Part shown: positions 21,195 to 56,726 of the stretch, one piece after another
How the letters are laid out: each line of letters opens with the position of its first letter
How positions within the stretch are numbered: the stretch's first letter is position 1
Assembly: GCA_050575255.1 (NCBI GenBank)
Contig: JBNZDD010013568.1
Location: 1,171,243-1,235,242, forward strand
DNA: 64,000 bases
DNA from: Harriotta raleighana
Taxonomy: Eukaryota
Direction of reading: 5' to 3'
The notes under the pieces: model-generated
What the model was told of the DNA's origin: nothing
What the model saw: only the letters and a program-made list of their open reading frames with translations
The model's database searches: none
Program-made: the position numbers and the translations under genes

Positions 21195-21424
21195 AACGCA
21201 AAAAAGTACAGATGCTGAAAATCTGAAACAAAAACAGAAATCGCTCGGAATACTCAGCAGGTCAGGCAGCATCTATGGAGAAAGGAAAGTGGGTCCATGA
21301 CACTTTGTTAGCACAAGGGAACTTCGTTCTGACGAAGTGTCTGAACCTGAAATATTGAATCACTCTCCTTTCTCCACAGATGCTTCCTGACCTTCTGAGC
21401 AATCCCTGGGGATTTCTGTTTTTT
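21195..21424. mobile_element. Palindromic hammerhead-core element (Penelope-like-derived, non-autonomous)
   Basis: Arms 'aaacagaaatcgc...caggtcaggcagcatctatggagaaagga' and 'tcctttctccacagatgcttcctgacc...atttctgtttt'; decayed core CTGACGA at 21329 and GAAA at 21349; central mini-palindrome acttcgt/acgaagt. Confidence 0.8.
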
Positions 21425-23388
21425 ATGCCAGACGGAGATTGGTTGGTCCAAACATATTTCCCTTCACCAGGAAAATTCTCACCTCATAAGAAGGGGACAT
21501 TGTCAGCACACTCCTTAAATCTCACAGAATCCTCCTGAGTCAGTTTTTGCTGTGTCGCCATGAAGACCACACTCATTCAGGATCAAGATCACCTAAATCA
21601 AATGGGATCTCCTGGGGTTTGAGCGTACCGCTGTCCATTACCAGCCCACGCAGAGTTTTTATTAGGAAACAGCAAGAGATGGGTATCAGGCGTTGATAGA
21701 GCCTTGTGCCAACCTCCCACGAGGCAGCTCAGGTCAACTGAGATGTCAAACTGTCACTCACAGCTACCAATGGAATATGCAACTCTAGCAATATTTATAA
21801 ATCCAAGACAAACATACATATGCAGCTGTAACTAACTGACAGTTGGGTTGGGTCTTAAACTAGCAGTTGGTGTTATACCAACTGATCTCTTTGTTTACAG
21901 ACATTATTACAGAGACCATAATCAGAATTAGATCTCTGGATGAGGATGGACAGTACTCCAGCATTTCTCTACCAACTGGATTTAGGGCAGAGAAGGAATT
22001 GAATTTTAAAAATTTACAATCACAGGAATTCATTAGATCTCGGGTTTCCTGGGATCCTGGAGTGCTATATAGGGACAGATTACAAGGTTGGGCCTCCAGA
22101 TGCCTTTTTTTCAATTCTTCTCCAAACTCCTGTGATTTTACTCAACATCAGATAGTAAAATGGAAACACACCCCAAAGGAAAGCATTCTGCCCACAGGAT
22201 TCACTATAAGACTCTACAATATAAAACTTTTATTTACTGTCCACACACTGAGTCAAAAGAAACAGTCGCTTATGAAAGTTTGAAAGGCTTCCAACATTCA
22301 GGAAGGTGTAATCCTCTAACATGAAACACACTATACAAATGTAAATTGTTGTTGTTGTAATTCTAGAGTGTTCAAAGGTGCAAAGTACACATTACTTCTG
22401 CTGTTTCATTAGATGAAACTTGGACAGATTAGACCCAGACGTCAGTTTGGCTGACAGAACAAGGGGTTATTAAAAATAAATTGAAGTTAGCTGACGTGGT
22501 TCTCAGAACTGCAACTATCTATGCAGTTTCTGCTTTGTATCTCACTGACACACAATCTAAGCCTGCATTAATCTTCTGGATGTTTGATTCAGGCTTTCTA
22601 TAACCTAAGATATTGCATGCAACAGCTATCATAAAACTAACAGGTCTGACATTATCAGGACTAACATGTAAATTACATTTTATTGCAACAATATATTTTT
22701 AAAAATCAGCATACTGCTTAGCAAGTGCACTGTAAAAGTGTGTCTCTCACACACAGATATTTAAGTTTAGAAACTACACTGACCAATATTGGGGAGTCAT
22801 TTCCTGGTTTGTTTATTTGAACATTAAACCGCTGAAGACAATCTCTCACAAAACAATTTCAACAAATTGAAGGGTAATATCTGGACATACACCACGACCA
22901 AACTAGTGACCTCATCACATCTGAGCAGCTTCAGAAAGATCCATTCAACCCTATTTTCCCAGTTTCCGGCACATGACAGATATGCACAGCCCCGCGATCC
23001 CGAGAGTACCTCAGCCAAACTCTAGGTATCTGAATAAGTGGCAACTGCAGCACAGTACCCAGGAGCTGTCACTCAGTAAGACTGACTTCCGAACAGATTG
23101 TCATAGTATCACACATTTTTGATTATTGCAAGAATAAATCCTGATTCTTAACTGAAGAAATATTGCAATGGCAAGCAAAATGCCTGGACTGACCTTCAAA
23201 GAACTCTTACACAAATTCAAAAAGAAGTCAAGGATGAAGGTCAGGTTAGTAGACATTTCAATATAGATCAGTGGAAAAACAGGATATGCTGAAGGACATT
23301 TTTTCTTTTCTGCCATTAACAATACCACTGGGACTCATTGAAAATGAAGGCAAGTAATACTAGTTACAGAGAACTCTAACCTGGCTCC

Positions 23389-24616
23389 ATTAATGGACTT
23401 GAATTAATGCGCTTCAAGACATTTTCCTTGAAAGATGCTAAATACGGGCAGGTTGTTGTTAAATTACATGACTCCTTTCAAAGAAATACAGCAACATAAT
23501 CTGTTTTCCTCTCCCTCCTCCTCCTCCTCCGGTCCCCCNTCAAAGAAATACAGCAACATAATCTGTTTTCCTCTCCCTCCTCCTCCTCCGGTCCCCTTCA
23601 CATTTTTCATAAACTATTTACATGGCAATAATTCAGACTATCATCTCAGTGATTCAAACAGACCCAAGAACTTAATTCCTGTTAATCCTCATCTTGCAGC
23701 TCCCCTTAGTGCTCCACAAGAGGCATACTTGTCCCCATCGAAATCCCACAAAAATAAGAGGCTCAAGTTGTTAAACAGGATTTTATTTTTCGGTCCAAAG
23801 CAGTGTGGTTCTTCCAGATACTGTCTCCCTAGTCACTGGACTATTCAGCTCGTTCACTTCTGAGATGGACTGTCCTAGATTACGCCATGAGATACATCAG
23901 GCTATCCTTGTTATTTCAATAGGTTTTGTCGGTGAGCTTCTGAACTCACTCAATTATAGTGCAACATTCATTTCTTAAAAAGGATCTGAATAGATTAACC
24001 TAAGCTTCAATTCAACAAGGACATTGGGGCAGTAGCCCATTCGTTCAGTAATATATTGCAATGGAGAGCACCAAGACCTAGAATCGCAGCCGCTATTCAA
24101 CCCATACAAGGATAACAGTTTCAGAGAAACAGGGATTGTTGATGTTCTTGTTGCACGTTCAATGAAAGCAGAATGAAAAGTGTCCCTCATCTCAAGCCTT
24201 TGGCTAAGACGGAGGTTTGATGAATTGACCATGTGCACTGTGACAAGGTCAGGGAGTCAGTAACGTGATAAGGAAGTGCAATCGGCAACTTGCAGCTGTC
24301 AGTTTCAAATGCCAACTGCATAGAAGTCAGAGGAATGAGTTTTGTTCAGCAAGATTCGAGAAGTCTCTTCAGCTTTCTCCTCATTTTAGATTCCCCTCAG
24401 CAAGAATACAAATAATCAGTAGAAATACATGGGCAGTGCTCGAAGGAAATATCTTGCTTTGAAAGTGTTTTATTAATGGACTTGAATTAATGCGCTTCAA
24501 GACATTTTCCTGAAAGGTGCTAAATACGGGTAGTTTGTTGTTAAATTACATGTCTCTTTTTGAAGAAATACAGCAGCATAATCTGTTTTCCTCTCCCTCC
24601 TCCTCTGGTCCCCTTC
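23389..24616. repeat. Diverged ~145-bp direct repeat pair (23389-23599 and 24472-24616)
   Basis: Both copies begin 'attaatggacttgaattaatgcgcttcaagacattttcct' and end 'ggtccccttc', with scattered substitutions; the first copy contains an N-joined ~60-bp duplication. Confidence 0.9.
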
Positions 24617-24624
24617 TGTTAATA

Positions 24625-24750
24625 GCCCCGCAGTAAGAGCTCTGCCCAGTGCATTACTACACCATGGGACTAGGAAGAGCACAGATTCCATCTCTTAGTT
24701 ATGTTGCGTTTGCTGATCTAAGCAAGGTGCTATAATTGGTCTCAGTATCA
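24625..24750 (+). mobile_element. LF-SINE-like 5' fragment
   Basis: 'gactaggaagagcacagattccatc...gtttgctgatctaagc...gtgctataattggtctcag' is colinear with the LF-SINE consensus as recalled and with the 60688 copy. Confidence 0.6.
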
Positions 24751-27261
24751 GGAGACTGTTCAATTTGTGTGAGTGTGTGTTTTCATTTGCATTGGTAATC
24801 TTGAATACTGCATTTTGCTCAGGTTTTTTTTGCTGATAAACATCTGCAAAATGAAATGATAGTCATCTTTTCAGACTTCTGTGCATTAACAACAATAACA
24901 ACTTTGATTTATATAGCGCCCTCCATGGCGGACGGCATCTCAGAGTGCTTAAACACAGGACACTTAGGTACACACAATGGGGCCATAGCTATACCTTTAT
25001 TTGCCAACAATCCACTTTAATCATGTGGTATGGGCAACTTCAGCTTTAGTCAGGTCTCAGGACTTCTCTATTGTGAAAATTTAAAACTAGTTGGGGCAGG
25101 AGCCACATAAGGAAATAGGACTCAAGTGTTTAAACAATTTAAAAATACAATATGAGGAATAGCAACTGAGCAAAATGACTCACTGAGGCAATCCCTCGGA
25201 TTAAAGCATACAAGCATTCACTGCATCATCAGTTTTAAACACTGTGGTTCTACAGTGGGTTCAGTGAAATCAGAAAGGAACTTTCTTTTTATAGCAGCAT
25301 ATCAAATTGAAAAGTCTCTGGATATTTCACAGGTAATTATAGGCAAAGGAATGACTATTTTTGTTGGCAAACTATGTGGCCATTTGTGCCTGCAAAGTCC
25401 CCAAGCTTCACTTATGCCATGAGGTGAATGACTTTGGAAGTAAATATTACTCTCCCAGGAGCTTGGAGACCAGATCTGAAATAGAACACAGTCTGGTCTT
25501 CATTGTGTCTGTATTTCTTTATAAGCAGATCAAACTTCTGCTGCACTTGTGTGACAGCCTGATGACACGAGAGATTAAAGAGTCTGTTTCAGAGAACATG
25601 AACTGGAGACTTAACATGCATAGAAGCTTTTGCATCCCAAAGTGAAAAGCGCTCTATAAATGTAATTTTGTTGTTGCATCAGTCAAATAGTACCTAGACC
25701 AAAGGCTGGGGAGAGTCCCACAGGAGCCAGACAGCCTGCCAATAGAGAAGGGCCTCCGCCAGCAATGTTGCCTTAACAGGTAGAAACTACCTCTGGTTGT
25801 ATCTCTGTCCCTGCAAGAGCACCAGCACTGCCTCATTCACCATATGGTGTTTCCAGCAGCTGGGATTGCTATGTCTGTCCATTATGGCGATTAATGACAG
25901 CTTTCCAGTACATTTCAAGCAGGGAACATAAAAACAACAATAAAATAGACAGGCACAGAAAGTTTCAAATTGAATGTTTCAATGCAAACTGAAAAGTGCC
26001 TTTTCCTTTAATCAATCTTTTGAAGATGAACTCAGATTTAGTGTGAAATTGAACCCTTTTCTGTTGTCTGCAGTTATTTGGATAAGAACTGATTTACCTT
26101 TCTGGGATGAATAAAATAAGGAAGAGGGTTCATACACTGCGATGACTCCAGGAGTTTAAAAAACAGAAGTGTTTTCATTCCTGGGCATATTATGCTTTTT
26201 AAAAAATCATTAAAAAGGCACAGTGGGTGCATTCTCCCCTCACCAAGGCTTCTGGAACTGAGTTGGCTGGCATGGTTTCAGTACTTAAAACAGCAGTGCA
26301 ATTCATAAAACATTTCGCTAATGACAGTAAATTAAACCACCCAGTGATTCCAACATAAAACATCTGCCAGCCTCTGTGCTGTGCCTTTCCTGCCTGTGGC
26401 ACAGTGTGACTCGGTGAAAAACAACAATTTCCTTGCCAAAAAGTTTTTATTTATTTAATGATGCATGACCACTGGGGGTTATTGGATTACAAAAATGTAG
26501 TCCTTACAATTTGGTTAATGTGTAGTCTCTGGCATCTATTCGTCCCTTAGAACTCTCATTACTGCTCCAACTACTCCCAACAGCCCTGTGCTGCACATTC
26601 TGCACAGTGGCGGATTGTTTGGCTATCAGCTGATATATCCTTTCATTAACATCGAGGTGGAGAAATGGCTAACAGTAATTGACAGCCAAAGCCAAGATTC
26701 ACTGTTAGAATCTGTGATGGAAAGTCACTCCACATCCACAGGTAGGAATTTTCCCTGACGGATCAGCAGTGGCTCTGGGGAAGGATGGAGGAAGCTGCTG
26801 GCAAGCTGATACATGGGCTAGGAAGAAGTCTAGTTAATATCAGCTGTTTTGTACTTTGTTACACATTGGGAGATTTCCAACAAGTCAGTTTGCTATGGAG
26901 TTTTGCACAGATTAATCCACTTAGGAGCTGCTTTGGTTTCTTCCAAAATGAGTGAATTCCTCTTCAGAACAAGCTGTTCCCTATAATAATGCCCCTGAGC
27001 CCCAGCCTCTCTAGCCTGGCCCATGTGTTATCACACTGATTGTGCAGCTTTCTGCTTCATTTGAAGCTCCACTTCAGATGTTTCTGATCTCGTTGAATAA
27101 AACTCGTCAATGGAGCATTAGATTTAGTGAAACATACTTTCCCCCGCGCCCCCCAAAAACTGCACTGGGTATACTGAATAAAGGGATTATTATCTTTAAA
27201 CGCTGATTTCACTCCCCATGTAATGAGAGGCTGACAAAACACTACCCTTTCAGTTGGGCAA

Positions 27262-30200
27262 TACTATCTACTTTTAAAAGAAGTGAATCAAACTTCCATG
27301 AAGGGTGGGGGAAACTCGTCTTTGGAATGATTTCAAGTATCCATCTTGCACTCCACTGACTCAGGCTCCAAAGCATATCCAATAGAAGTGGAGTCTGGAT
27401 TTAAAGTTGATCCAGGGTCATATGGTCTGGTTTATAAACAGCTTTTTACGACTATAATAATAATCTTAAGATTTAATATAGTATCTCATTACTATAATGC
27501 AGGTCTCAACCCCACCATGGTTGAGTTGTTGCTAACCTCACATTGGAGAGAAGCAAACACAGGAAACCTCAAAGAACATTCAGTAATCAGATTTCTTTCT
27601 CCTTTTTGTATCAGCATCTTGTGAAATTACAATCCTGCAACTCAAACATATTCATTAAACTGCAGATAATTAAGTCTCATGCCTGGTCTCATTAGATGCT
27701 TACAGGCTGTCACAAACAACTGCAGCTGTGCTGACTCACTGTTATTTAGGTTGAACCAACCCATCGCATGTGTGGAATCTGAACAATACAATTGTCATCT
27801 TAGTGAAAAGGCAATTTATCATGTAAAAACCTTACAAGAAATGTCCCTGTGAATGATTTTAGCTTTTCCAGCATCTAGAATCTTACAACCTAAGAGCCAC
27901 TGAAGATGATTCCCCTTTGGGAATGAAAACATGTAACAGCTAGGACTAACTAGGCAAATGTTAACAACCCACCTTTAGTGGCTCAAAATCCCAATGAGAA
28001 TGGAAAGACATGACAATCTGCCTCGATCGGTCAGCTTCAATAGAAAATCAATAGAAAACCTTCAGAAATGTAATGCATATTTGATTGTATCCAAGATCTT
28101 TCCGTCTTGTTTCATTATATAAAACAATCCACAAACATTGTAAAACCAGCAGAACTTCAAACGGACACTTCCTGACTGGTCAGACACAAGCTATGAGCAC
28201 ACTCAATACTCCACAGCCTAAAAATCTCACAGCAACCAATCATCCACAACATTCCAAGGAACACACCGCTTCCTCACCTATCCCTACTTGACGCTATCCT
28301 ATTCTTTATTTAATGCAACTACAACAATAAAATTACAATTGTAGAGCACCTTTCACATTGGGAGGATGCCCCCAAATAACTTCAAAATAAGATTCAAACC
28401 AGCAAAATAAAATTATGGGAACAAACTAGACTCCAACATAGCCATCCTTCTATAGTCTTCTTCCTAAATTGCTTTTCATGTTAAAATCATCAGAAACATG
28501 TTTTTTTTACTGAGCTGAGTTATAAAGCATACAGGTTCCTCTGAAATCGAACACAGCTTTAAAATAATCAACCAATACCTTGTTTCCTTCCCTGTTGTTG
28601 GTCTGATCAACAAACCCTTTGCATCATAGGCTGACATGGGATCCAATTCACTTCACTCACTTCAAAAAAGGGGTTCGGGAGAGGCACCAACACAGTATCA
28701 ATGGCTGAGAAATTCCTCAATGTGGGAGAAACAAGGCTCCCAAGTGTCCAACAAGTACAGTGGGCCGTTTGGAGGGTAATGATGCAAAGAATTTCAAAAT
28801 GTCTCTTTCAATAATGTTATCAGCATTTTATNTACTATCTACTTTTAAAAGAAGTGAATCAAACTTCCATGAAGGGTGGGGGAAACTCGTCTTTGGAATG
28901 ATTTCAAGTATCCATCTTGCACTCCACTGACTCAGGCTCCAAAGCATATCCAATAGAAGTGGAGTCTGGATTTAAAGTTGATCCAGGGTCATATGGTCTG
29001 GTTTATAAACAGCTTTTTACGACTATAATAATAATCTTAAGATTTAATATAGTATCTCATTACTATAATGCAGGTCTCAACCCCACCATGGTTGAGTTGT
29101 TGCTAACCTCACATTGGAGAGAAGCAAACACAGGAAACCTCAAAGAACATTCAGTAATCAGATTTCTTTCTCCTTTTTGTATCAGCATCTTGTGAAATTA
29201 CAATCCTGCAACTCAAACATATTCATTAAACTGCAGATAATTAAGTCTCATGCCTGGTCTCATTAGATGCTTACAGGCTGTCACAAACAACTGCAGCTGT
29301 GCTGACTCACTGTTATTTAGGTTGAACCAACCCATCGCATGTGTGGAATCTGAACAATACAATTGTCATCTTAGTGAAAAGGCAATTTATCATGTAAAAA
29401 CCTTACAAGAAATGTCCCTGTGAATGATTTTAGCTTTTCCAGCATCTAGAATCTTACAACCTAAGAGCCACTGAAGATGATTCCCCTTTGGGAATGAAAA
29501 CATGTAACAGCTAGGACTAACTAGGCAAATGTTAACAACCCACCTTTAGTGGCTCAAAATCCCAATGAGAATGGAAAGACATGACAATCTGCCTCGATCG
29601 GTCAGCTTCAATAGAAAATCAATAGAAAACCTTCAGAAATGTAATGCATATTTGATTGTATCCAAGATCTTTCCGTCTTGTTTCATTATATAAAACAATC
29701 CACAAACATTGTAAAACCAGCAGAACTTCAAACGGACACTTCCTGACTGGTCAGACACAAGCTATGAGCACACTCAATACTCCACAGCCTAAAAATCTCA
29801 CAGCAACCAATCATCCACAACATTCCAAGGAACACACCGCTTCCTCACCTATCCCTACTTGACGCTATCCTATTCTTTATTTAATGCAACTACAACAATA
29901 AAATTACAATTGTAGAGCACCTTTCACATTGGGAGGATGCCCTCAAATAACTTCAAAATAAGATTCAAACCAGCAAAATAAAATTATGGGAACAAACTAG
30001 ACTCCAACATAGCCATCCTTCTATAGTCTTCTTCCTAAATTGCTTTTCATGTTAAAATCATCAGAAACATGTTTTTTTTACTGAGCTGAGTTATAAAGCA
30101 TACAGGTTCCTCTGAAATCGAACACAGCTTTAAAATAATCAACCAATACCTTGTTTCCTTCCCTGTTGTTGGTCTGATCAACAAACCCTTTGCATCATAG

Positions 30201-30402
30201 GCTGACATGGGATCCAATTCACTTCACTCACTTCAAAAAAGGGGTTCGGGAGAGGCACCAACACAGTATCAATGGCTGAGAAATTCCTCAATGTGGGAGA
30301 AACAAGGCTCCCAAGTGTCCAACAAGTACAGTGGGCCGTTTGGAGGGTAATGATGCAAAGAATTTCAAAATGTCTCTTTCAATAATGTTATCAGCATTTT
30401 AT
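27262..30402. repeat. 1570-bp tandem duplication joined by a single N (likely assembly artefact)
   Basis: 27262-28831 is repeated at 28833-30402 with N at 28832; the one difference I noticed is c28372/t29943. Confidence 0.95.
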
Positions 30403-30977
30403 CAGGCTTCTGTCCTTATCTAAACCAAACAATCACTAGAACAGCAGCTGATAAGCTGCTATGGTATGGCAGTTATACCAATTAAATGTGGCAATAATAG
30501 AAGCCTGTGAGAATTTATGAGCTTTACAATCTTACCTCTGCCCTGAATGTTTTGATCCAACCATAAAGCCAGTGCTTACCTGTACAAGCTACTCCCATTC
30601 ACATGGCACTGGGCCCAAGTCCTAACTCATTATCTATTAACTACTGCTTCACCTATTCTATTTATTAGTTGATCTTCCTATTTTAATAATTCAATTTAAA
30701 ATAAACTTACCTTTACCTTCAAATGGCCTTTTGCACACTATTTCTTTAGCTTCCAATTGTTATAGTAGTATTCAAGCGGTGCAGTGATCACCCCAATTAC
30801 ATGTAAAAACTCAACAATAATTAAACAGCCAACTCCAGTAATCGCCTTGTGACCAACCTTCTTTCCTTCGCATGATGTTGACAATTAAAACAAGCTCAGT
30901 TCAATATGTTTGTTTTGTAACTTAAGAATCCAAGTCAATCTTGTCAAATGCATCAATGCTTTTCTGAGGATAGGGTG

Positions 30978-31493
30978 CCTCGCCTTTGTCACCTCTCGGC
31001 TGGACTATTGCAATGCCCTCCTCTCCGGTCTCCCCTCCTCCACAATCCACAGAGTCCAGCTTATCCAGAACTCTGCCGCTCGCGTTCTCACCCGCACCAA
31101 ACTTCGCTCCCCCATTACCCCAGTCCTTGCCAGACTTCACTGGCTCCCTATCCCAGAGAGGATAGATTTTAATCCCTCATCTTCAAATCCCTCCAATCCT
31201 CTGCACCCCCCTCCTCTCTCTTCAAACCGGTACCTGTTGCCTTTGCTCCACTGGGTCTGGCTTCCTCCGCTCCACCCATTATGCCCCGAGGCTCTGGAAT
31301 TTCCTTCCTCACTTCCTCCGCCTCGCCCCCTCTTTTCCCAGGTTCAGGTCCCAGCTGAAGACCTTTCTCTTCAACCGCACCTTTGGTCACCTTTCTACCC
31401 CGGCCCCTGGCTCGGTCCCGGGATCCACTATTGTGAAGCGCTCTGAGACTCTGTCTGGTGTGGAGGGCGCTATATAAATCCAAGTTGTTGTTG
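30978..31493 (+). mobile_element. L2 LINE 3' end with ORF2 C-terminus
   Basis: [18 protein letters not shown]...[34 protein letters not shown], then frameshifts; tail 'gggcgctatataaatccaag' followed by (ttg)n. Confidence 0.95.
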
Positions 31494-31694
31494 CCAAAAT
31501 CACCCACTATATCCCCAATAAAGCCTGACTCATAGAAGGTTAAAATAACTTATTTTTCCTTAGAACAAACAGCAAAGGATATAGTTTAGCTTCAAGAAGA
31601 TGACACAAACATTAAAAGTAGACATTTAAGCCGATATGTGACTGAGGGAGCGAGCGGTAGAGTCAGGTTGGAGAGGATCAAAGAGATAAGGGAA

Positions 31695-31760
31695 TACAGT
31701 AAAACCTCAATAATCTGACATTCTGAAAGCCAGCAAGTCTCTAAAACCGGTGAGATTTTT
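31695..31760 (+). mobile_element. Possible pogo/Tigger-like terminal inverted repeat remnant
   Basis: TA followed by CAGTAAAACCTCAATAATC, a typical Tc1/mariner-pogo terminus. Confidence 0.4.
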
Positions 31761-31802
31761 AAAATATTTTTTTCCCGATAGCCGGCAAAATTCCCCCAAA
31801 TT

Positions 31803-31964
31803 TAACGTTTCGGGTCAGAAGTACCTAGAACTGACGAAGGGTCTTTGACCCGAAATGTTGACTCCATTTTCTTTTCTCCATAGATGCTGCCTGACCTGCT
31901 GAGTGTTCCTGGCAATTTCTGTTTTTGTTTCAGATTTCCAGCATCTGCAGTATGTTGCGTTTTT
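31803..31964 (+). mobile_element. Palindromic hammerhead-core element (right arm plus remnant of left arm)
   Basis: CTGACGA(31831)-A-GGGTC ttt GACCC-GAAA(31852)-TGTT, then the arm 'tctccatagatgctgcctgacctgctgag...ttgcgttttt'. Confidence 0.85.
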
Positions 31965-32000
31965 TCCCCCCCAGTTTATTAACATTCTAACAATGTTTTA

Positions 32001-32041
32001 TAGTCCTGTCCAGTCCCCACAAAAGGGACTGGACAGGACTA
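32001..32041. repeat. Perfect 17-bp inverted repeat with a 7-nt loop
   Basis: tagtcctgtccagtccc-cacaaaa-gggactggacaggacta. Confidence 0.95.
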
Positions 32042-33714
32042 GTTTGGGAATATAGGAATACAGATCTTGTCCAAATGTTTGTGGTTTTCTTACTGTCCTT
32101 CTCATTCCTTTTATATTGACTCAAATGATGAACAATGGCCATTAATGTTAGATCCAGCAGCAAAAAGGTGCACAAATTGAATCTTAAGTCTCACATGACA
32201 TTGCATAGCAAACAGGTGCAAAATAGCAAGTACATGATTTATCCAGCCTATCAGTCCGATACCTTTTATTAGACTGATCATTTACAACAGGTCGTCAAAG
32301 ATACTTTTATCACAGTAACACCCAGTAATACTGCCCCGTGAGCAATACTTCCCCTACAATTTCAACCATTAGACAGACAAACAGACAACTTAATCTTATC
32401 AAAAGATCTGGAATTTTACCAAGGAAATTGCTGTAATCTTCTTGCTATAAAATGGTTCAATAAAATAAAAGCAGCTGAATCAGCCCCAGAAAATAATTAT
32501 TGGGTGCGACCAAATCCAGCTCCACATTGTGAACGCTGTGACATTGTGAGGGCAGACCATAGAAGCCTCCACGTACGTACAAGAACTAGGAAAATAATGT
32601 GCACCGTAGACGTGTGAGAAGGCTCTCGGTGATAGAGAGCAGCACATTTACAACAAATGTGGCTCTTGACTTAAGACAACATTTCTTCACAGCAGTCAAC
32701 CATCCTTCCTCACATGTATTCATTCTACACAATTACAATGAAGTAAACTGGAAAGCTAGTCAATGATTGCTCTCCAGTGTTGAAGTCTATTGGTTTGTTT
32801 TTACGGAATTATTTCAATAATGTCAGTGCATTCCTATTTACCGACTACAGCAGAAATTAGTCATTAAGAACTGAAACAATGGGGAGAAATAAGCTTATAT
32901 CCACACTAGGTTACAACAAGGCAGGCTTGTGGTCTGTGCATTTCAAACTGGAACGCAGCAATTCAGAGCACATGTAGCAACATTGGTGCGAATCGGTGTG
33001 TTGAAGTACAAAGTTTGGAGAAGAAAAACAGCTGAAAGACAATGTCTTAGTAAAGTCTAAGTAAACTGTAAATCCATTAAAATCTTAGTACAGTACTTCA
33101 GGCCAGTTGTACAGTACAGGGTGTAAGCTGAATCCATGCACTTTATCACCCTGACGTGCTATTCCTGAGTGGAGATAATCGCTGCTTTAATAAACATTCA
33201 TGAGCTTATAACTTTACCAACTGATAATGACAGGACCTGCATAAAAATAAACCAATAAAGATATTTTATTGCGGCTGTGATAATTCAGTTCCGTATCATT
33301 GTACTGTATCTGCTTTCTTACCAAAATGTTTTTACTGCACAAAATTGTGCTCATCAAGAACACAGAGGGCATTTATAGGATGTTTGGACCAAGTCTGCCG
33401 CAGTCTCATTTATTACCCACTGGATTTCACATTCTGCTGCAACATGACTAAACAAGAAATATGATCAACACTCAAGACATTCCGAATGAGACTTGTGGAA
33501 ATCATTCAAAAACAGTCAAAATGTCACACAAAAGATGCTAGTAGATTCCTGTTTTTGAAATTATGGAATTGGGTGATATTACAACAAATCTAGCACTTGC
33601 ACATTGTTAAGCGACTTGGCACATCCTCCCGACGTGAAAAGCGCTCTATAAATGTAATTCTGTTTTGTTGTTGTTAACCGATAAAGGATTTAGCTGCTTG
33701 TGTTTCCCAGCAGG

Positions 33715-33908
33715 ATAATGCTCTCTGCGCTTTCAGTTACTATGGCCTGAAACTCTGGAACTCTCTCTCTCACTCCGCAAGGTCACACTTGAAAACACTC
33801 CCCTTCGACCATGCCTTCCCCCTCCCTGGCCTGGTGCTCCACCACTATCACACACTCTGGGACACTACCCCGTGTGAGGGGCACTATAAAAATGCAAGTT
33901 GCTGTTGA
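33715..33908 (+). mobile_element. L2 3' end
   Basis: AFSYYGLKLWNSL motif, followed by the tail 'gtgaggggcactataaaaatgcaagttg'. Confidence 0.8.
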
Positions 33909-36900
33909 CTATTTGATATGGAACTTTGCTGACTTCATGGCTTTGAAATCACAGCCTTTTTGAAGCACAGTTTGTACAGGCAGGTTGTACAGGGCTGCAA
34001 AAAAGGTCTCTACATCACATTATCCTGCAAAGTGGAAACATACTGCAATATATTAAAATTCCTGTAGGTTTACATTACAGGACAAAATGAGTGGGGCGTG
34101 TCACAGAAAAGATTTGCTCATCTGATTAAATGTAAGGGTAGAAGATTTTCAAAGCAAAAGGCACAGCTTTAAGCTCTCCTCAGTTAGACCAGTGAGATGG
34201 CCAATTTGGAGCAAAATACCCAAATCTCTCCAACCAGGAAATTGATCACTCAATCACTCCAACCATTAAAAATAAGATTCTTACTGGCAGCAGCAACACA
34301 ACAAATGTCAGTTTTATAACGCCTTTCACATGGGGAGGCAAAGAGCAAGGTGGGAAAATTAGGGCATAAATATTCACGTATATTCAAACTCGATTCTTGG
34401 CTTTTCATTGGACGGAGGAGGGTTAATGTATGTAATAAAATAGATGTTATTTTCCTACTCTCAATCTTGTGATGAATTCAAGCAAACAAACCAAAACAAC
34501 TTAACCTGTTACAACATGTTGAGACACAAACTCACTGCCACTGCATCATGTTCCTGTCAGTTTAGCAAATCCCTCTGTTCTCTCTACCTGCTATTGTGTA
34601 CGTCTAGGATTTTAAAAGCTTACTATTTGTTAAGATGCATAAATCACAGATTCTATTAGCAGCTGATATGAAAATTATGGCACTGTTTAATGGATATGCC
34701 TGAAGATTGTATAACCACCAGCATTATGGAAGAAACCACCATGTCACAAGCAACTGAATACTTTATAATCTGCTGACCAGTGTTATCGCAACCTGAACTT
34801 TGAGTTTATGGCGGTTCTGCTCCTAAAATTATACTTTTAATTTGGTTCAATACACTTCATCAATCTGCAAGCGTATAAATTATTATACAACTGGCAACTG
34901 ACAAGTTATTGAAAAGCAAAAAGCACACATATTAGTAACACTGATAAGTGATAAGACTAAAGAAAACCCAGCAACATTGTTATTATGGATCTTATCAAGC
35001 AGTGGTAGATTATTAACCAGGATGATTCATCGATTGACTACAGAACTCTTTCATTTCATTCACATCTTCTATTGGTATAAATATTAATTTCCTGTTGCTG
35101 AGTACCCTATACAATAGAAAGTACATTATTCTAAAACAATAACAACAATCTTTGGATTAGATATAGCGCAGTTCACGTCTTCTAGATGTCTCAAAGCACT
35201 TTAGATCACTACTGTATATCAAGTGGAAAAATAATCACTGGATACATGGGCATGGGGAGGGCGAGAGAGAAACATTTAAAATGCATAGCTAATAACTTTA
35301 CAGAAAATCCGTGCAGCTCTTTGACAAACATAAGGCACCATTTCAAATACGAGGATTATCAACAGAGAGATTCATACAAAAAAGGTCCTCAACATGGTAG
35401 TGGATCTCAATTCACAGCTCAAAAGAACTGAAATGTGTATATCTATCTCACTGTGTGAAGCCTACGATTTCACAGTATTTTCTCAGAGTGAACTCTCAGC
35501 CACCTGAATGTTGTGGCTATAAGGGTAAACCTCTGAACAAAGATCACAGAAACTGCACAGAGGAAAGATGAGGAGCGCAATCTTAAGGCATCGCTTCCTC
35601 AGTTACTCCGTGTAAAAGCTGCTCAAGGTGGTGTGGAGGGAGAAGAACGGACTGGATAATTAGAACAGAACTGTTTCACTACAATTTTGAGTACATTTGT
35701 CCTTTAATCAGACATATTCTGTCATATTATTTTACCTGGGTGAGAAATGGGACCTATAGCTGCTTTATTCCAAAATGTTGATAAGGCCTTTCGGAAACCC
35801 AGCTGTTCAATGTTCTCAATTAAGTTGTGGTCAGGCACTGAAGACACAACCTGCCCTGGATTTTAATGAGCAGACATTTGACCCACAGCAGCTTCTCAAA
35901 ATGATTAGTGCAGCCAAACACATTTGACTGCCAACCACGATTCACAAATGCCTTGGCTTCATTTCAGAGCTGAGGTTTAACTGTATGTCAATTCGGTGAA
36001 CATGACTCATTCATACAGGAATTCAACGTATCATCAAATGAAATAATCAAACACAATCCTCTCCAAGGCTAGAAATCAATGATCTTCCAACTGCTTAAAA
36101 ACCTCACAAGATGAGGCACAGAAGCCGGTGTTAATAACCAGCTTCTCCATTGATAAAGCTCACAATAAATAATATCGTTTACATATTCAACCATTCTGGG
36201 TAACTCAGCCCATTGACGTTGGTCATGGTTGGTCAACTTAGACTTGCAATGGGTCTCCTTCACTTTCTGAGGTGGCAATCTGGCAACCTGCACCATTCAC
36301 AAAGCATAAGGTTGTACTAGCGACAGGATGTCACACACAATTCCCCTCAGTGTGAATCTCAGCCATTAGGCAAACATTAGGGGGAAGGTAATGAGAGGAT
36401 GGTATATATGAGTGCAGATGACACTGTGACAACAACAACAAAGTTACATTTGTTTCTCGCCTTTCACATCAGGACAACTTCCCAAGACGCTGGACAATTA
36501 CTGCTTCAGACCCGAGCTGAGGACCTTTTGTGAGCACTGCAACCCCAAAAGCTCCAAAGCAATTCCAAAGTGAAGAAGAATTCCTTAATAAAATGAACAG
36601 GAATTATGGCAAAAACAAGACACTGGCATGGGAGCCTTCAGTTTCTATTCGTAAAAGGCAGCCAAGTCCACAGGAGGAAACTTTTGAACAAATTTCATTA
36701 AATTTAGTTCAAAATCATGAGACTGAGGCAAAAGCAATTTAGTGTCAGCAGCTCCCAATACAAATAAAATGCAGCTCCTTCCTCTGAGCAATCAGGTTAA
36801 TTATAACCATTCAGAAGACCAATTAAAGCGCTGCTTGTCAGTTACAGGAGAGAGAGAATTTAAGCATTTCTTGGGTGTTCCAAGTAGTCTACAATTAAAT

Positions 36901-40353: not shown

Positions 40354-40704
40354 TGTGGAGCTCCTGTGGCTCAGTGGTTAGAGCACTCGCCTTACATGCC
40401 TTACAAGCATGAGGCCTGTGTTCGAATCCAGGCAGATCAGGGCGAAACCTTGGGCAAGTTTCCTTACTCCACATGCCTAATAATAATCCCTCCAAAAAAA
40501 AAAAACTACAATAATAAAAAAAATTGGTCATTTCAATCCATGACTGTTTGTGGGACGCTGCTGTGCGCAATTGGCTGCCGCGTTTCGCCCACAAATATAC
40601 AGTCAATTCACTTTACAGTATACTCTGTGAAGCGCTTTGGGACGTTGATAAGATGTGAAAAGCGCTATATCAAATGCAAGGATTATTATTATTATTATTA
40701 TTAT
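40354..40704 (+). mobile_element. Full-length tRNA-SINE family A (young copy)
   Basis: A box TGGCTCAGTGG at 40367-40377, B box GTTCGAATCC at 40420-40429, CORE-like 'ccttgggcaagtt', Deu-like 'gtgggacgctgctgtgcgcaattggctgccgcgtttc', L2-type tail and (tta)n; CpGs retained. Confidence 0.95.
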
Positions 40705-41462
40705 GATTGATCTGTACAATTCAAAGCCAAAGAATGAGACAGAGATCATTTAGATTTAACAAAGTGATTGTGACTGGAGAAAATTGACAGACGTGAAATT
40801 GAAAACATTTAAACTCGATGGAAGGACGGAAGATGTAAGCGATATTGACAAAAAGTTTCATGTGAAAGATTCAATTTATCTGTAGTTATGTTTTAGTAGT
40901 CTCTCACATCTCACTTCAATTACTATTATATTTTGTTGACTTAAACTCTGATGCTACTGTTAATGCAAGAAAACTCAATAAATCTTATGTTTCGATTACA
41001 AAGTCTTCTATTTTACATTCAGCTGAGGATATTGGTCAAATTCTTAGACAACAGAATGAAGCGGAACACAAGCTGCAACTCGCTGAGTACACAGAAAAAA
41101 GCTAATAGATTATAACTATATATTTAAAATCTTTACATTTGACACAGTGCCTTATGTTGTTGAGAGATCACAAAGCTCTTCAGAGGATATACCAGAGGGC
41201 GGTGTTGCTATGTGTATTTTATGGACGATGGTATGAATACCATCTGATTTGTTGTGCATCAAAACGTAATTCCATGTAATACTTCTATATATACATATAT
41301 ATAACGTATATATGCAATAATGTTAAGGTTACATGGCAGAGAACTGTGAAGCACTTAATAATGTACAATGGAAAGAGAGATATAACTGATAGTAAATTTA
41401 CTCTGACAATGTCAGTCTAACTGAAGTGAGGGCAAATTTCAAATGCCTGGTGTTGTTTAAGA

Positions 41463-41502
<40 letters not shown>

Positions 41503-41503
41503 A
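41463..41503. repeat. (TC)n(AC)n compound microsatellite
   Basis: Seen directly. Confidence 0.95.
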
Positions 41504-44850: not shown

Positions 44851-45194
44851 CTTGGCGTCCGCTGTGAAGATATTCGCAATCTCCACTTTGGCTGATTGCG
44901 GAAGCATGACAGCAATTGTACAGATGGAGTAAATGTGAGATGAGAAAAGTAATTTGTGATTGTTTTCAGTAATACAACAGCAAGTGAAGAGGAGTAGGAC
45001 TGGAGGTTTTGGAGAAACTGTCACATGGCTTAAACCAAAATTATGTTCATGTCCTTTTTTTTTACTCAATTCACATAATCTGTCAGTTACTTGATGGTTA
45101 ATCTCTGTCTTCTCCCCCTCCTCTCAATCAACTTTGCCTCTCCAAAGCATGACTGTCTATCCCACTCTGATTAGTTAGCACATTAACCATCAAA

Positions 45195-45376
45195 ATAATA
45201 ATAAATTGGTTATTTCAATCCACGACTGTTTGTGAGACGCTGCTGTGCATAATTGACTGCCGAGTTTCGCCCACAAATACATAATCAATTCACTTTACAG
45301 TATATTCTGTGAAGCACTCTGAGTCATCTAAAAAATATGAAAAGCACTTTATCAAATGCAAGGATTATTATTATTC
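45195..45376 (+). mobile_element. SINE family A, 3' half
   Basis: Matches 40510-40700. Confidence 0.85.
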
Positions 45377-45498: not shown

Positions 45499-45551
45499 GA
45501 TCAATTTGTTTCTCTGACTGTGCTGTTCCATTGCTGCCCTCATCCAACAAT

Positions 45552-50236: not shown

Positions 50237-50576
50237 ATAATAATAATAATAATAATAATCCTTGCATTTGATATAGCGCTTTTCACATCTTATCAACGTC
50301 CCAAAGCGCTTCACAGAATATACTGTAAAGTGAATTGACTGTATATTTATGGGTACAATGCGGCAGCCAATTGCGCACAGCAGCGTCGTCCCCCCCACAA
50401 ACAGTCATGGATTGAAATGACCAATTTTATTATTGTTGTATTTTTGGAGGGATTATTATTAGGCATGTGGAGTAAGGAAACTTGCCCAAGGTTTCGCCCT
50501 GATCTGCCGGGATTCGAACACAGGTCTCATGCTTATAAGACAAGTGCTCTAACCACTAAGCCACAGGAGCTCCACA
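50237..50576 (-). mobile_element. Full-length tRNA-SINE family A (young copy)
   Basis: Near-identical reverse complement of 40354-40704. Confidence 0.95.
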
Positions 50577-50636
50577 ATCAGTTACTATCAAATGCATGTG
50601 TAGTTACGAATGAATGGTATAGCTGATCTGCCAGAG

Positions 50637-50922
50637 ATAATAATAATAATAATTTGATATGGCGTTTTTCACATCTTCTAGACATCTCAAACCGCTTTGC
50701 AGAATGTATTGTAAATTAAATTTCCTGTATATTTTTAGGCAAAATGCGGCAATCAATATTGCGCACAGTAGAGTCGCACAAACAATCGTGGATTGAAATG
50801 ATCAATTTTTTTTTTTTCTTGAAGGTTTATTATCAGGCGTGTGGAGGAAGGAAACTTGCCCAAAGTTTCACCCTGCCTGGAAACGAACCCAGGCATCTTG
50901 CCTGTAAAGCGGGGTTAAACAC
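50637..50922 (-). mobile_element. SINE family A (older copy)
   Basis: Same architecture as the adjacent copy but more diverged. Confidence 0.85.
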
Positions 50923-52307: not shown

Positions 52308-52392
52308 ATGGAAAGTATGTGTGTGTCAAGACAGGATCAGGCTCAACGATTACCCTCTTCAAGATCAAACGGCCTGCTGGTTGCCACTCAGC
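52308..52392 (+). mobile_element. LF-SINE-like central fragment
   Basis: 'tggaaagtatgtgtgtg..gacaggatcaggctc...tcaaacggcctgc' matches the middle of LF-SINE as recalled. Confidence 0.55.
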
Positions 52393-52415
52393 AACTGAGC
52401 TCAAACAAGGAGAAT

Positions 52416-52570
52416 AAACGAAAGGCAAAATACTGCAGATCCTGGGAATCTGGTATAATCACAGAAGTCACTAAGAACATGCATCAGCTCAGGCGGTATC
52501 TATGAAGAGAGGAAAATTAGTTAACTGATGAAAGGTCATTGACCTGAAATGTTAACTTATTTTATATCTC
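52416..52570 (+). mobile_element. Palindromic hammerhead-core element (old copy)
   Basis: Left arm 'gcaaaatactgcagatcctgggaatctg...', then CTGATGA(52525)-A-AGGTC att GACCT-GAAA-TGTT. Confidence 0.75.
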
Positions 52571-53894
52571 ATGTTACTCTACTGCCAACATGAATTGCTG
52601 TGTTCAAGAGAGACGAGGAGAAGGAAAGTAGTTAGACATTAGCCCTAGACTTGTGTTCAGCCTTAAACATTATCTATTTCTGTGTCTTTAGACAGAGCTG
52701 TATTAGCACTCCATATCTCTTGAAAAAGTTGATATCCATCTATCCTTCAGAACAGGTCAGGCAATGTCAATTGAGTCTTTCCTTTTTCAAGGAGGTGCTT
52801 TCCAATTCGTAACAGGGAGGTTCCTACAAATCAATACAGAAGTCACGAGACTCCTCATATCTGTAAGAGCACACTGCTGTGTTTCATCACCTCTGGGACA
52901 CATCCTGGCCTAATGGGATATTGCCATACTCATGTTAAGAGGTTAGTAGTTTCCTCAACCACTATCTAAAGTGGAAATCCTTGAGTCTGTTGCACTTATA
53001 AAACAGTATTCACTCCACAATTAAGTGAATGCAACAAGATTTGAAGTCATAATTAATACATAAGCTGAGGTTGTGCTCTTTATTTTCATTTTCAGGACTG
53101 AGTATAACATACATGACCCTGGTACCAGAGCCCCAATATAAGAATGTGTCCAGGATGTACACTTCAAATTCAATTACATTCTTAGAATGTAAGAATCTGG
53201 TGGGCACTGGTGATCAGTTCCAGATGTTGACTGATGTATGATATATAACGTAAGAGGAATGTGAACATAGGCTCCTATGAATCTCATGCACAGAATGTCC
53301 TGCTGCACTTTCATAACTTTCCTCAGATGAGGCACTGGTGTTAAATATAGAAATAAATCAATATCAAAGAACCAGACTGGAGACTCAACATTTCAGTTTA
53401 CAATGTCAGTCTAATTAAGGAACAGTTTGACAGGGGACTGATTGGAGGATATGTCTCAAGCAATTTGTTGGCAACATCTGTGGGTATACATAAAATATGT
53501 GTTTAGTTATACAAAGAGAAAACTACAGTGAGGTGCAACAACCTCAAAGTAAAATGATTCAATTATTTGTCACTGTTTATGTTGATCTGATTGGGTTGTG
53601 TAACAGAGAACACAGGCAGAGTACGGAATGCGAGAATTGACTCGTTGAAATGTTTTCTGGAATGAAAATACAGCAATACTCAGCATACCAATCAATGTTC
53701 TTTACATTTTGCTAGTTTCAGATCATCAAACACAATTTTAACACTTTGATCACTGAATGTCCTGTGTAGGCTGTGTGTTCTGCTTTAGATTCATTTCTCA
53801 ATATGAAAAGGCTGAGCTCCAGAGAAATACATAAAATCAAACAATTTCTTGAAAAAATGCATCTTGTGGCACTAAAATTAAAAAAGTCTATCAG

Positions 53895-54200
53895 ACACGG
53901 TGGAGCACTGACCAGGAATTGCAGGTTCTGTGTCTGGTTTGTGCGGAGCTAACTGAATTCAAACAGGGACACTGGGAGAGGGAGGGAAGGTTTAAAAATA
54001 AGACAACATTCCTTCTCTGTATCATTGTCCCAACAGCCCTGATGGAACTTGTGTGGGTGTTGGATGAGAATAGAATAAGGCCTGATTCTGATGGCCTTCC
54101 ATGGCTGAACAGTCGCCAGCACTCACGGTCTGGGCTCACATGTACACTGCCACCTAAACAAGGTACCGAGGGCAGGGGGTGGCCAAACTCTATGGAAGGA
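53895..54200 (+). mobile_element. LF-SINE-like, near full-length
   Basis: 'gaccaggaa..caggttc..tctggtttgtgcggagctaactga', 'gcactcacggtctgggctcacatg' and 'aggtaccgagggc' occur in LF-SINE order. Confidence 0.7.
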
Positions 54201-54721
54201 ACTTTTCGAGAAATAATCTTAGTTGGTATCCTGACCCCAGTAGCTTAAAAAATTTCATATCAGGGTATCCCAGGGTAATAACTTTTTGCGTCCTGATTTT
54301 TTCTCCTCTTCTAACAAATTTTGGTAAATGGCATCTGCACAACCGAATCAGTGCAACAACCACCAATGATGGCCAGTCCCAACAACAACAACAAAATTAC
54401 TAATGAGGACCAGCAGGAAATAAAACCACAGTTGTAATTTGAAACTGGCTCATAAATACTACTGTAGTCTTTCACAGGCTGAGATCAGCAGAGCAAAAGT
54501 TGTATAAACTTACTGACTCTTTTAAAATCGGGGTACTCACAGGTCTGGAGAGGGTGTTAAGGGATTACAGATTGGTTTACATTGCACTCAGTGTTTTTTA
54601 ACAGACAATAGCACTGCCCAGATACATTTACATCACACAATTCCCAAGAGTTAACAGCTTAACCTAACAATCTTCACACAGCGGTGTTTGTCTTCTACAG
54701 CAAGAGCATTAGTTCACAAGG

Positions 54722-54932
54722 ACTGCAGAGAGCAGAAAATAAAAACAGAAATGGCTGGGAACACTCAGCAGGTCAGGCAGCATCTATAGAGAGAAAGGAA
54801 AAATAAGTCGACGTTTCGGGTCCACCACCCTTCGTCAGAACCCTCTCTCCATAGATGCTGCCTGACCCGCTGAGTATTCCCAGCGATTTCTGTTGTTTCA
54901 GATTTCTAGCGTCTGCAGTATTTTGCGTTTTT
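54722..54932. mobile_element. Palindromic hammerhead-core element with 51-bp arms
   Basis: Arms 54744-54794 and 54844-54894 are inverted repeats with 4 differences in 51 nt; 49-nt loop. Confidence 0.9.
54805..54843 (-). ncRNA. Minimal type I hammerhead ribozyme motif (short stem III variant)
   Basis: GGGUU-CUGACGA-A-GGGU-GGUGG-ACCC-GAAA-CG-UC/GACUU: complete core, 4-bp stem II, 5-bp stem I (with G-U pairs), palindromic ACGU in place of stem III; activity untested. Confidence 0.7.
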
Positions 54933-55389
54933 GAGTGAGCAGAAAGTGTCTGTTTCCATACAAGTGACAATAAATTGTAAAGTAGCAGTCATTTTTCCTG
55001 AATTCTCCACTGAGAGCATTTAATCTCCCAAGGCTCCGGATACAGAAGTGCCCACATGTGGGAATCACAGCTTTTGTAATTGAATCCTTCATTGGAGGTC
55101 AGCAGCAGATCCTGGTTTTATAGGAAGCTGTGGGTTATTGGGGGAGGCTCTCTGCTTACATTGATTTCATTTGAATTATGATCACTTCAAAAAATGTGTG
55201 AATGGCGGTGGTGACTTCAAGTTCAAAACATTATTGCAAACAGAAATTTGTTATCTTCACCATTGAAGACTCTGGTATAAAATACATCTGAAACCATAGC
55301 CCAATTAGTTGACCAAGATTTATTCAGGCGTGAAGTACAATTTCTTCATCTACCAAGAAGAGGATTCCCTGAGTTACAAGGAAACTTCT

Positions 55390-55403
55390 CCAGTAGGGGG
55401 CAC
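55390..55403 (+). promoter_or_regulatory. Candidate CTCF site
   Basis: CCAGTAGGGGGCAC is an exact match to CCASYAGRKGGCRS; motif match only. Confidence 0.5.
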
Positions 55404-56012
55404 TTTTGCATCACACAAGCAAACACAACCCCTGTTCCAATGCATTTCATTCCCACCCAGCACACAGCTGATGCACTCCCCTCATATTTCACTAGAAGTG
55501 TTTAATATGTGTTGTCAAACACTCGCTGTGCCAGTAGTACAAGCCCAAAGTGAGAGGTTGCAGTGCCTTCTGGGATTTTCTAGTTTGATACAAAGGAACT
55601 GAGGCCCATCCATCAATCCCCCCTCACCCCCATCTCCTTTTGCTCTCAGATTTCTTTGCAGAATGGTGAAGAATTGATCCCCTGAACAAAGGCTGAACAA
55701 TTTCCACCCAGGCATACTTGATCAAGGTTATGGTTTTATATTGGGAAACACGTCCACACCTTCCCCCATCCTGGCCCTATGTGGGACCTTGCTGTGCACA
55801 TTACTACATGTGGCAGCAATTACTATATAAAGTGCTGTGAGATGTTTAAACATTGAAGGCAGAATAAAAATACAAGTTATTTTAATTATTTTAGGTTTGT
55901 TTGGCTAGGAGGATCTGGAGGACAGCATCTTCAACAATGCAGCACACACTCAGCTCAACATTTGAATTAGTCATATTTAAACAAAGCATATGCAGGTAAG
56001 GTTTTAGATAGG

Positions 56013-56095
56013 AATAATAATAATCTTTACTTTGAATGTAGAGCCTTTCAGTTTGGGAGGACGTCTCAAAGCGCTTCACAGGATATAACTGTAAT
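56013..56095 (-). mobile_element. SINE/L2 tail; an older + strand Deu-like fragment lies at about 55778-55880
   Basis: 'aataataatctttac...gggaggacgtctcaaagcgcttcacagg'. Confidence 0.65.
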
Positions 56096-56620
56096 GTGGT
56101 GTGTGTGTGTAGCTAAAATATATTTCTCCAAGCTTATCCGATTCATTTAAAATTTATTATAATTGGGGTTTCAAGGTATTATTTAAATTTGACAAGTTCA
56201 TTCCTAGCGAAAGAGAAGCTTCACTTATACAATGAAAGAAAATGCTCTCCTGAAATTTTTACCAGCTTGTTAACACTGCAACACGAACATTGTGCACTGG
56301 ACTTCCATTCCTCGGTGTTTAACAATAACAGGGGTGATACCACAAAGCTTACAAGATGGAAAACACGAATAGGATTGCAAAGTATTAAGCAAATCTTCAT
56401 GTAGTATTAAATCAGATTAATAACCTGAATTCAACCTGAAGAACAACCTCAAAGCTCCTTATTCGTTCAAAAGGTCAGGTGCTGTGTATTAAAGTTCGCT
56501 ACACATATTTACACATTTTCCAGATAATTCTCAGCTCCACCAGGAACACAAAAGATTTATACAATGCAATAGATAATCCATGTACTGTACAAGTATAGAA
56601 AGTATACCAAGTAAATAGCT

Positions 56621-56726
56621 AGGGTTCTGACAAAGGGTCGTGCACCCGAAACGTTGACTCACTTTCCTCTCTCTATCGATGCTGCCTGACCTGAGTGTTC
56701 GCAGCGATTTCTGTTTTTGTTTCAGT
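56621..56726 (+). mobile_element. Hammerhead-core element (right arm only)
   Basis: GGGTT-CTGACAA(G8>A)-A-GGGT cgtgc ACCC-GAAA-CGTT-GACTC, then the arm 'gatgctgcctgacctgagtg...atttctgtttttgtttcag'. Confidence 0.85.

What the first reader, a model, noticed from the sequence alone, without database searches (positions are those of the whole stretch)
21195..56726. Family of five palindromic elements sharing a hammerhead core with conserved stem II pairing
Seen: copies at 21195, 31803, 52416, 54722 and 56621 share the arm 'gatgctgcctgacctgctgag' and the same central motif. Stem II stays paired while the loop varies: GGGTC/GACCC (loop ttt), AGGTC/GACCT (loop att; compensatory G-C to A-U), GGGT/ACCC (loops ggtgg and cgtgc). 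Five copies in 64 kb implies a very high genomic copy number. No ORF is attached. Inference: a ~250-bp foldback element made of two inverted ribozyme-bearing Penelope-type terminal repeats, so transcription from either strand would yield one hammerhead. It could be mobilised in trans by a Penelope RT/GIY-YIG protein.
Basis: partly seen in the sequence, partly recalled or inferred. Interest (0 to 1): 0.7.

Follow-up and report, generated by a model that had tools for sequence, protein, structure and literature searches.

The report
Short Penelope retroelement stubs with hammerhead
The five repeats are old, short leftovers of the ribozyme-bearing end of a Penelope-like jumping gene, some with a mirror-image second half, in a pattern already described for this class, so they are real but mostly ordinary.

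Summary
All five loci are real and share one repeat arm. Each has a core matching the published Penelope-type minimal hammerhead consensus (CUGANGA, one extra A, stem II, GAAA, palindromic CG, UH).

Only 2 of 5 loci are true foldbacks. Each locus has a whole core on one strand only. The stem II 'covariation' is one double change, no better than shuffles.

The two foldbacks have 11-12 nt target-site duplications (TSDs) and unequal ends: one arm carries a ~36-nt extension. That is the 'inverted pLTR plus 30-40 nt tail' of Penelope-like insertions, linked in print to two reverse-transcription start sites.

Same-species reads give at least ~7,000 arm copies per genome and an intact stem II consensus, with no dominant centre junction among those listed. 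A relative carries the arm at one orthologous site, so that insertion is old.

No Penelope ORF could be linked, so membership rests on ribozyme and insertion anatomy. Best reading: short Penelope insertions whose inverted half forms at integration (0.62); main rival: a fixed non-autonomous master (0.25). One open lead: no arm extends shared sequence past the ribozyme's 5' edge. New member of a known kind.

The parts
21185..21195 (+). Left target-site duplication of locus c21 (11 nt, 1 mismatch to the right copy)
   Evidence: chance 23 of 6000 random window pairs
21196..21311 (-). c21 inverted arm with the ~36-nt tail at its outer end; ribozyme relic lacking GAAA and the cleavage site (internal deletion)
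21324..21425 (+). c21 ribozyme-bearing arm; decayed core 21329-21356; ends at the short end, no tail
21426..21436 (+). Right target-site duplication of c21
31803..31819 (-). c31 inverted stub: ribozyme relic with most of the core and the 5' strand of stem II deleted (microhomology-type deletion, inferred)
31831..31963 (+). c31 arm: core 31831-31859 (stem II 5/5, stem I 2/5), body, tail 31927-31963; 31963 is a family-wide end; TSD uncertain
52421..52525 (-). c52 inverted arm with tail, most diverged copy (67-75% to the others); starts about at the cleavage site
52525..52570 (+). c52 core 52525-52553 with the A-U variant at stem II pair 1; rest of this arm lost or decayed; TSD not significant
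54727..54738 (+). Left target-site duplication of c54 (12 nt, 1 mismatch)
   Evidence: chance 8 of 6000
54739..54843 (-). c54 ribozyme-bearing arm; core 54838-54810; only copy with all core positions, stem I 5/5 and stem II 4/5; short end, no tail
54842..54933 (+). c54 second arm, no ribozyme, carries the tail
54934..54945 (+). Right target-site duplication of c54
56621..56746 (+). c56 solo arm: stem I 5/5, core 56627-56655 with G8 changed to A, decayed tail; not palindromic; no clear TSD

Best explanation
These are short, decayed insertions of the hammerhead-bearing pseudo-LTR of an endonuclease-bearing Penelope-like element (PLE). SHOWN HERE: one arm sequence, a PLE-type minimal hammerhead at its 5' end, two fixed 3' ends ~36 nt apart, head-to-head arms with element 3' ends facing outward, 11-12 nt TSDs at 2 loci, and thousands of copies. 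FROM THE LITERATURE: the PLE protein nicks and extends both target strands and starts reverse transcription inside an uncleaved RNA at two adjacent sites that bound the 'tail'. INFERRED: each nicked strand primes a short cDNA, one from each start site. The two cDNAs stop near the ribozyme and are joined at variable points, often by microhomology. This gives an asymmetric foldback with the tail on one side and a TSD from the staggered nicks. One-sided events give solo arms. Later deletions remodel the hairpins. The copies are now passive fossils; at most 1 of 5 has an intact ribozyme fold.
For: Core matches the consensus of PMC4209133 Fig. S3: CUGANGAH, G...C, GAAAN, palindrome, UH. That paper reports opposite-strand pairs ~100-700 bp apart and mostly solo motifs. 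Read consensus from 6,516 loose ends restores a 5-bp stem II and the GAAA-CG-UU core. TSDs p~0.004 and ~0.001. Tail at one end only in both TSD-bounded copies, as in PMC8557442 and PMC3846280. Long end at 31963 has heterogeneous flanks in 524 and 388 contigs of two relatives. Ends lie about +88 and +124 from stem II; the anole PLE starts RT at +111-118 from its ORF start at stem II. All four two-armed centres differ. Listed strand-change joints within the arm have at most 5 reads at ~13,000x depth. Both arms of c21 share a G-to-T change that breaks stem II, fitting one template and no need for cleavage.
Against: No PLE ORF was linked: no Pfam family above its cut-off in 299 of the 300 longest frames and no protein hit for the arm peptide (weak test). 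TSDs are significant at only 2 of 5 loci. c31 has its tail on the ribozyme arm, against the polarity of the other three two-armed loci. Copies are old (arms 67-93% alike), and the c31 site differs among three species, so centre differences may postdate insertion. Joint sensitivity is unknown and 358 joints were not shown. Random truncation of a 3-kb element does not explain why every arm stops at the ribozyme's 5' edge.
Confidence: 0.62

Rival explanations
1. A separate non-autonomous family derived from a PLE pLTR: a fixed short master (a ~135-nt single arm, or a head-to-head palindrome with two ribozymes), transcribed on its own and mobilised in trans. Present differences come from later deletions in unstable hairpins.
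For: All arms stop at or inside the ribozyme's 5' edge; only ~6 nt upstream of the core are shared, at c54 and c56. Relics of a second ribozyme at c21 and c31. At least ~7,000 copies and no ORF nearby. The c31 site was remodelled in relatives. Non-autonomous PLE derivatives are known.
Against: Four of four centres differ. No dominant strand-change joint is listed. One solo arm. The one-sided tail is a product of integration in the published model. A single-arm master would still need the inversion step of the best explanation.
Confidence: 0.25
2. Dispersed monomers of a non-LTR retrozyme that replicates through self-cleaved circular RNA.
For: Type I hammerhead, no ORF, small size; retrozymes derive from pLTRs and leave monomers.
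Against: No tandem array at any of the 5 loci (13 TRF rows, none overlapping). Arms are inverted, not head-to-tail. The ribozyme is whole at the 5' end, not split at the cleavage site as a cleaved monomer would be (inference). Helix III is minimal.
Confidence: 0.05
3. A DNA-transposon MITE or foldback element (long TIRs; Mutator-like TSDs of 9-11 nt, recalled) that happens to hold a hammerhead-like core.
For: Non-coding, inverted arms, TSD 11-12 nt, high copy number.
Against: The two ends are unequal by ~36 nt in both TSD-bounded copies. A solo arm exists. Centres vary. The core matches the PLE ribozyme consensus and is the majority sequence in thousands of reads.
Confidence: 0.04

Closest known systems
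Insertions of canonical EN+ Penelope-like elements with inverted pLTR and tail (Arkhipova 2013 PMC3846280; Craig 2021 PMC8557442)
   Same: Head-to-head inverted 5'-truncated copy, 30-40 nt tail at one end only, TSD of similar length (8-10 nt there, 11-12 here), solo pLTRs.
   Different: Here the whole insert is 127-230 nt with no ORF sequence, and no arm passes the ribozyme's 5' edge.
Minimal hammerheads of metazoan PLEs (Cervera and De la Pena 2014, PMC4209133)
   Same: CUGANGA plus one extra nucleotide, G-C closing stem II, GAAA, palindromic CG, UH, short stem I; thousands of solo copies; pairs on opposite strands.
   Different: No cartilaginous fish appears in the part of the alignment read or in a term search of the readable supplement. 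Activity was not tested here.
Poseidon element of the green anole, PAc (Frangieh 2024, PMC11167929)
   Same: Ribozyme ~90-125 nt upstream of the element ends; two ends bounding a tail; uncleaved RNA as template fits whole ribozymes in the inserts.
   Different: PAc's ORF starts at stem II; no ATG there in these copies. No sequence comparison was possible (its GenBank-format supplement is unreadable here).
Animal non-LTR retrozymes (bioRxiv 10.64898/2026.07.22.740005; PMC7229834, listing only)
   Same: Non-coding, pLTR-related, type I hammerhead.
   Different: Retrozymes are head-to-tail tandem arrays; these are inverted or solo.

Membership tests
EN+ Penelope-like element (pLTR-derived insertion) | Minimal type I hammerhead with the PLE consensus in the pLTR | tested here: met
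   read consensus. All core positions in 4 of 5 copies (c56 has G8 changed); core plus both stems in 1 of 5.
EN+ Penelope-like element (pLTR-derived insertion) | Inverted 5'-truncated copy joined head-to-head | tested here: met
   Clear in 2 of 5, partial in 2, absent in 1.
EN+ Penelope-like element (pLTR-derived insertion) | 30-40 nt tail at one end only | tested here: met
   ~36 nt, one-sided in c21 and c54; long end confirmed by loose ends in two relatives.
EN+ Penelope-like element (pLTR-derived insertion) | Target-site duplication | tested here: met
   2 of 5 significant (23 and 8 of 6000); c31 and c52 candidates weak (162 of 6000, 165 of 4000); none clear at c56. No clean empty site seen.
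EN+ Penelope-like element (pLTR-derived insertion) | Same sequence flanks an RT plus GIY-YIG ORF elsewhere in the genome | not testable with these tools
   No genome held. DNA scans empty or chance. Peptide search empty. No ORF in the window.
Hammerhead ribozyme | Covariation supporting stems I and II | tested here: inconclusive
   74.5% of cells paired against 12-46% for slid controls, but one double change and no excess over shuffles, 5 sequences. A relative's read consensus shows the A-U variant; linkage not shown.
Hammerhead ribozyme | Self-cleavage | not testable with these tools
   The monomer ribozyme fold is not the lowest-energy fold for c54 or c56, as expected for dimer- or protein-assisted PLE ribozymes.
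Non-LTR retrozyme | Head-to-tail tandem units each with a hammerhead | tested here: not met
   no array at any of the five loci. Window only.
MITE (DNA transposon) | Symmetric terminal inverted repeats ending at equivalent positions | tested here: not met
   Ends differ by ~36 nt in both TSD-bounded copies; solo arm present.

The most novel reading that the evidence does not exclude
The stubs are run-off cDNAs, not random truncations. Reverse transcription starts at the two internal sites near the 5' end of the RNA and runs to an RNA end just upstream of hammerhead stem I, once from each nicked target strand. That would explain why no arm in the five loci passes that point and why the tail usually sits on the shorter arm (3 of 4). 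Thousands of such read-length inserts would then map the RNA 5' end and test how Penelope elements build the inverted pLTR and tail. A search for Penelope with twin priming listed 2 papers, neither on this subject by title or abstract.
Probability: 0.3. Interest if true: 0.55.

Novelty: new member of a known kind. Interest (0 to 1): 0.24.

Why it matters
As it stands this annotates an abundant repeat family and warns that such stubs can be mistaken for MITEs or microRNA hairpins (a sub-threshold Rfam MIR1507 hit falls on one). It would matter more if the shared 5' boundary and tail polarity hold genome-wide. How Penelope elements form inverted pLTRs after the first priming step is stated to be unvalidated (PMC11167929), and thousands of whole insertions short enough for one read would test it directly.

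Tried and rejected
Rfam: no hammerhead model matched at E up to 5; the MIR1507 hit (31 bits against cut-off 73) is only the foldback.

Own genome: none held.

DNA pattern scans: viral contigs 0 and 0; metagenomes 0 and 0; prokaryote genomes 2 hits that do not extend past the 22-mer, 0.27 expected by chance.

Protein link: a 41-residue frame (27 residues of arm, 14 of flank) found nothing among longer proteins, a weak test.

Pfam: 299 of the 300 longest stop-to-stop frames (57 aa or more; one with an N left out) gave three sub-threshold hits and no RT or GIY-YIG. It also missed an apparent LINE fragment, so sensitivity to decayed ORFs is low.

Expression: no RNA holder listed; no evidence either way.

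Empty site: not obtained. At c31 one relative has the arm at the same right flank and another has 102 nt where the window has 201.

Assembly artefact: rejected; the N-linked duplications lie elsewhere.

Significant covariation: rejected at n = 5. The C-to-T half of the double change sits in a CpG and may be decay (inference).

Window-density extrapolation (~80,000 loci per Gb): not confirmed; reads give ~7,200 at 82% identity, a lower bound.

Literature searches for this family in print found no description; one search returned only hammerhead-shark papers. Repbase and Dfam were not available, so the family may already be catalogued.
Full report
OBSERVATION. The five loci exist at the stated places, and blastn and nhmmer with each copy find these five and no others in the window. 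The arm motif matches five arms at up to three mismatches and a core pattern matches four loci, each against zero in 100 shuffles. The fifth core, at 21329-21356, is decayed. The window has four single Ns; three have duplicated flanks that look like assembly artefacts, and none touches these loci. No hammerhead model in Rfam matched.

ANATOMY. I call the loci c21, c31, c52, c54 and c56. c21 (21196-21425) and c54 (54739-54933) are true foldbacks (z about -13); c31, c52 and c56 are weak or not at all (z -2.6, -1.3, +1.3). c21 and c54 are bounded by 11- and 12-nt duplications with one mismatch, met by chance in 23 and 8 of 6000 random window pairs. Candidates at c31 and c52 are weak (162 of 6000, 165 of 4000) and c56 has none that is clear. 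In c21 and c54 the arm with the ribozyme stops at a short end, and the other arm runs ~36 nt further to a long end. c52 also has the extension on the ribozyme-less arm. c31 has it on the ribozyme arm, and c56 is a solo arm with a decayed extension. So polarity holds in 3 of 4 two-armed loci. The four centres all differ. c21 and c31 keep deleted relics of a second, inverted ribozyme; c52 and c54 do not.

THE RIBOZYME. The core reads CUGANGA, one extra A, a 5-bp stem II, GAAA, CG, UH, with a 5-bp stem I whole in c54 and c56. This fits the published consensus for minimal hammerheads of metazoan Penelope-like elements, including the extra nucleotide and the palindromic positions 15.2-16.2 (PMC4209133: text parts 1-2 of 4 and part 2 of 3 of supplement file 2 read; file 1 not searchable). 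That paper already reports pairs on opposite strands 100-700 bp apart and thousands of solo motifs per genome. Pairing is 74.5% against 12-46% for slid controls, but there is one double change and no excess over shuffles. Only c54 keeps every core position and both stems; c56 has G8 changed. The ribozyme fold is not the lowest-energy monomer fold.

GENOME-WIDE EVIDENCE. Raw reads of the same species and contigs of this and two related species were laid on 31450-34250 at 82% likeness (4 of the 14 runs listed). Depth on the arm is 13,168x against 1.8x (s.e. 0.35) over 16 flank bins, giving about 7,200 arm copies as a lower bound and a genome near 1 Gb. The window's density would imply about ten times more; that is not confirmed. 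6,516 reads clipped at 31868 give a consensus with an intact 5-bp stem II and the GAAA-CG-UU core, so c54 and c56 each lost the fifth pair by one change. One relative's consensus has the A-U variant seen in c52. Contigs of two relatives end at 31963 with unrelated flanks (524 and 388 contigs), fixing the long end. Listed strand-change joints within the arm have at most 5 reads; 358 joints were not shown and sensitivity is unknown, so this weighs only moderately against a fixed-centre family. In relative X7 one contig joins the arm's short end (31926) to the c31 right flank, so that insertion predates a split with roughly 8-10% flank divergence. That contig lacks the tail, and about 530 nt upstream on it is not accounted for by the listed pieces. 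Relative X5 has 102 nt where the window has 201. The site has been remodelled, and I cannot order the events. The raw reads may come from the sample behind the window, so they are not independent for the locus itself.

WHAT IT IS. An inverted 5'-truncated copy, a 30-40 nt tail at one end and short TSDs are the described form of Penelope insertions (PMC8557442 passages; PMC3846280 passages and Discussion; PMC8969392 passages). In vitro, the anole Poseidon protein nicks and extends both strands, starts at two internal sites that bound the tail, and uses uncleaved RNA (PMC11167929, parts 1-2 of 4; its sequence supplement is unreadable here). Its start site lies 111-118 nt after stem II begins; the ends here lie about 88 and 124 nt after it. 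I infer that each nicked strand primed a short cDNA and that the two were joined at variable points. This step is inference. Arkhipova 2013 instead proposed self-priming on an antisense template, which these copies do not exclude.

WHAT IS MISSING. No Penelope ORF was linked. There is no genome to search, collection scans were empty or chance, and protein searches were blank. PLEs are reported in all vertebrate lineages studied (PMC4350176 passages). That the host is a cartilaginous fish is my recollection of similar repeats plus two earlier AI notes on sharks; it comes from no sequence match (one search found none).

RIVALS. A fixed non-autonomous master remains possible, because old hairpins lose their centres by deletion and no arm passes the ribozyme's 5' edge: only ~6 nt upstream of the core are shared, at c54 and c56. 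Retrozymes need tandem arrays, absent here (preprint 10.64898/2026.07.22.740005, part 1 of 5 and passages; its supplements are closed and may list related families). A MITE needs symmetric ends, which these lack.

VERDICT. A real, abundant and old family; a new member of a known kind. Seven searches found no description of this family, but repeat databases were not available. Two earlier notes of this scan report the same pattern in other genomes; my reading was recorded before I saw them. The one point worth more work is the common 5' boundary. Interest 0.24.

Noticed in passing
window 16037-19046, 23478-23589, 27262-30400 (Ns at 17541, 23539, 28832): Single Ns flanked by exact head-to-tail duplications (844, 50 and 1110 nt identical before the first difference); probably scaffolding artefacts.
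   Followed up: partly
window 7642-7713, 12928-13000, 50504-50566; bodies near 13106-13290, 40380-40710, 45191-45375, 50237-50545, 63775-63959: An abundant tRNA-headed repeat with AAT-rich tails, most likely a SINE family; its heads score as tRNA in Rfam and ARAGORN.
   Followed up: no
window 30889-31493: 185-aa open frame that resembles the C-terminal end of an L2/CR1-type RT (recalled; no Pfam hit). Reads show a high-copy 3' end at 31493 with a TTG-rich tail.
   Followed up: partly
window ~31640-31800 and 33518-33990: Mid-copy repeat (135-370x against 1.8x) directly left of c31 and a similar-depth one further on, with a very high-copy segment at 33610-33664 (~22,800x) ending in GTT repeats.
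   Followed up: no
window 31884-31964, 54855-54932, 21272-21193 (-): The arm holds two splice-acceptor-like tracts and an ATG-started frame of about 27 codons that is open in the three best tail-bearing arms. It may be the PLE ORF start, as in rotifer pLTRs; no protein hit.
   Followed up: partly
window 31768-31971: The c31 site has three states in three species: tail present here, absent in X7, about 100 nt shorter in X5. Both element ends follow a GTTTTT run, so a microhomology deletion could mimic the short end.
   Followed up: partly
window 21318-21340: A small snap-back hairpin at the c21 centre, complementary to the ribozyme core, suggests template switching at the junction.
   Followed up: no
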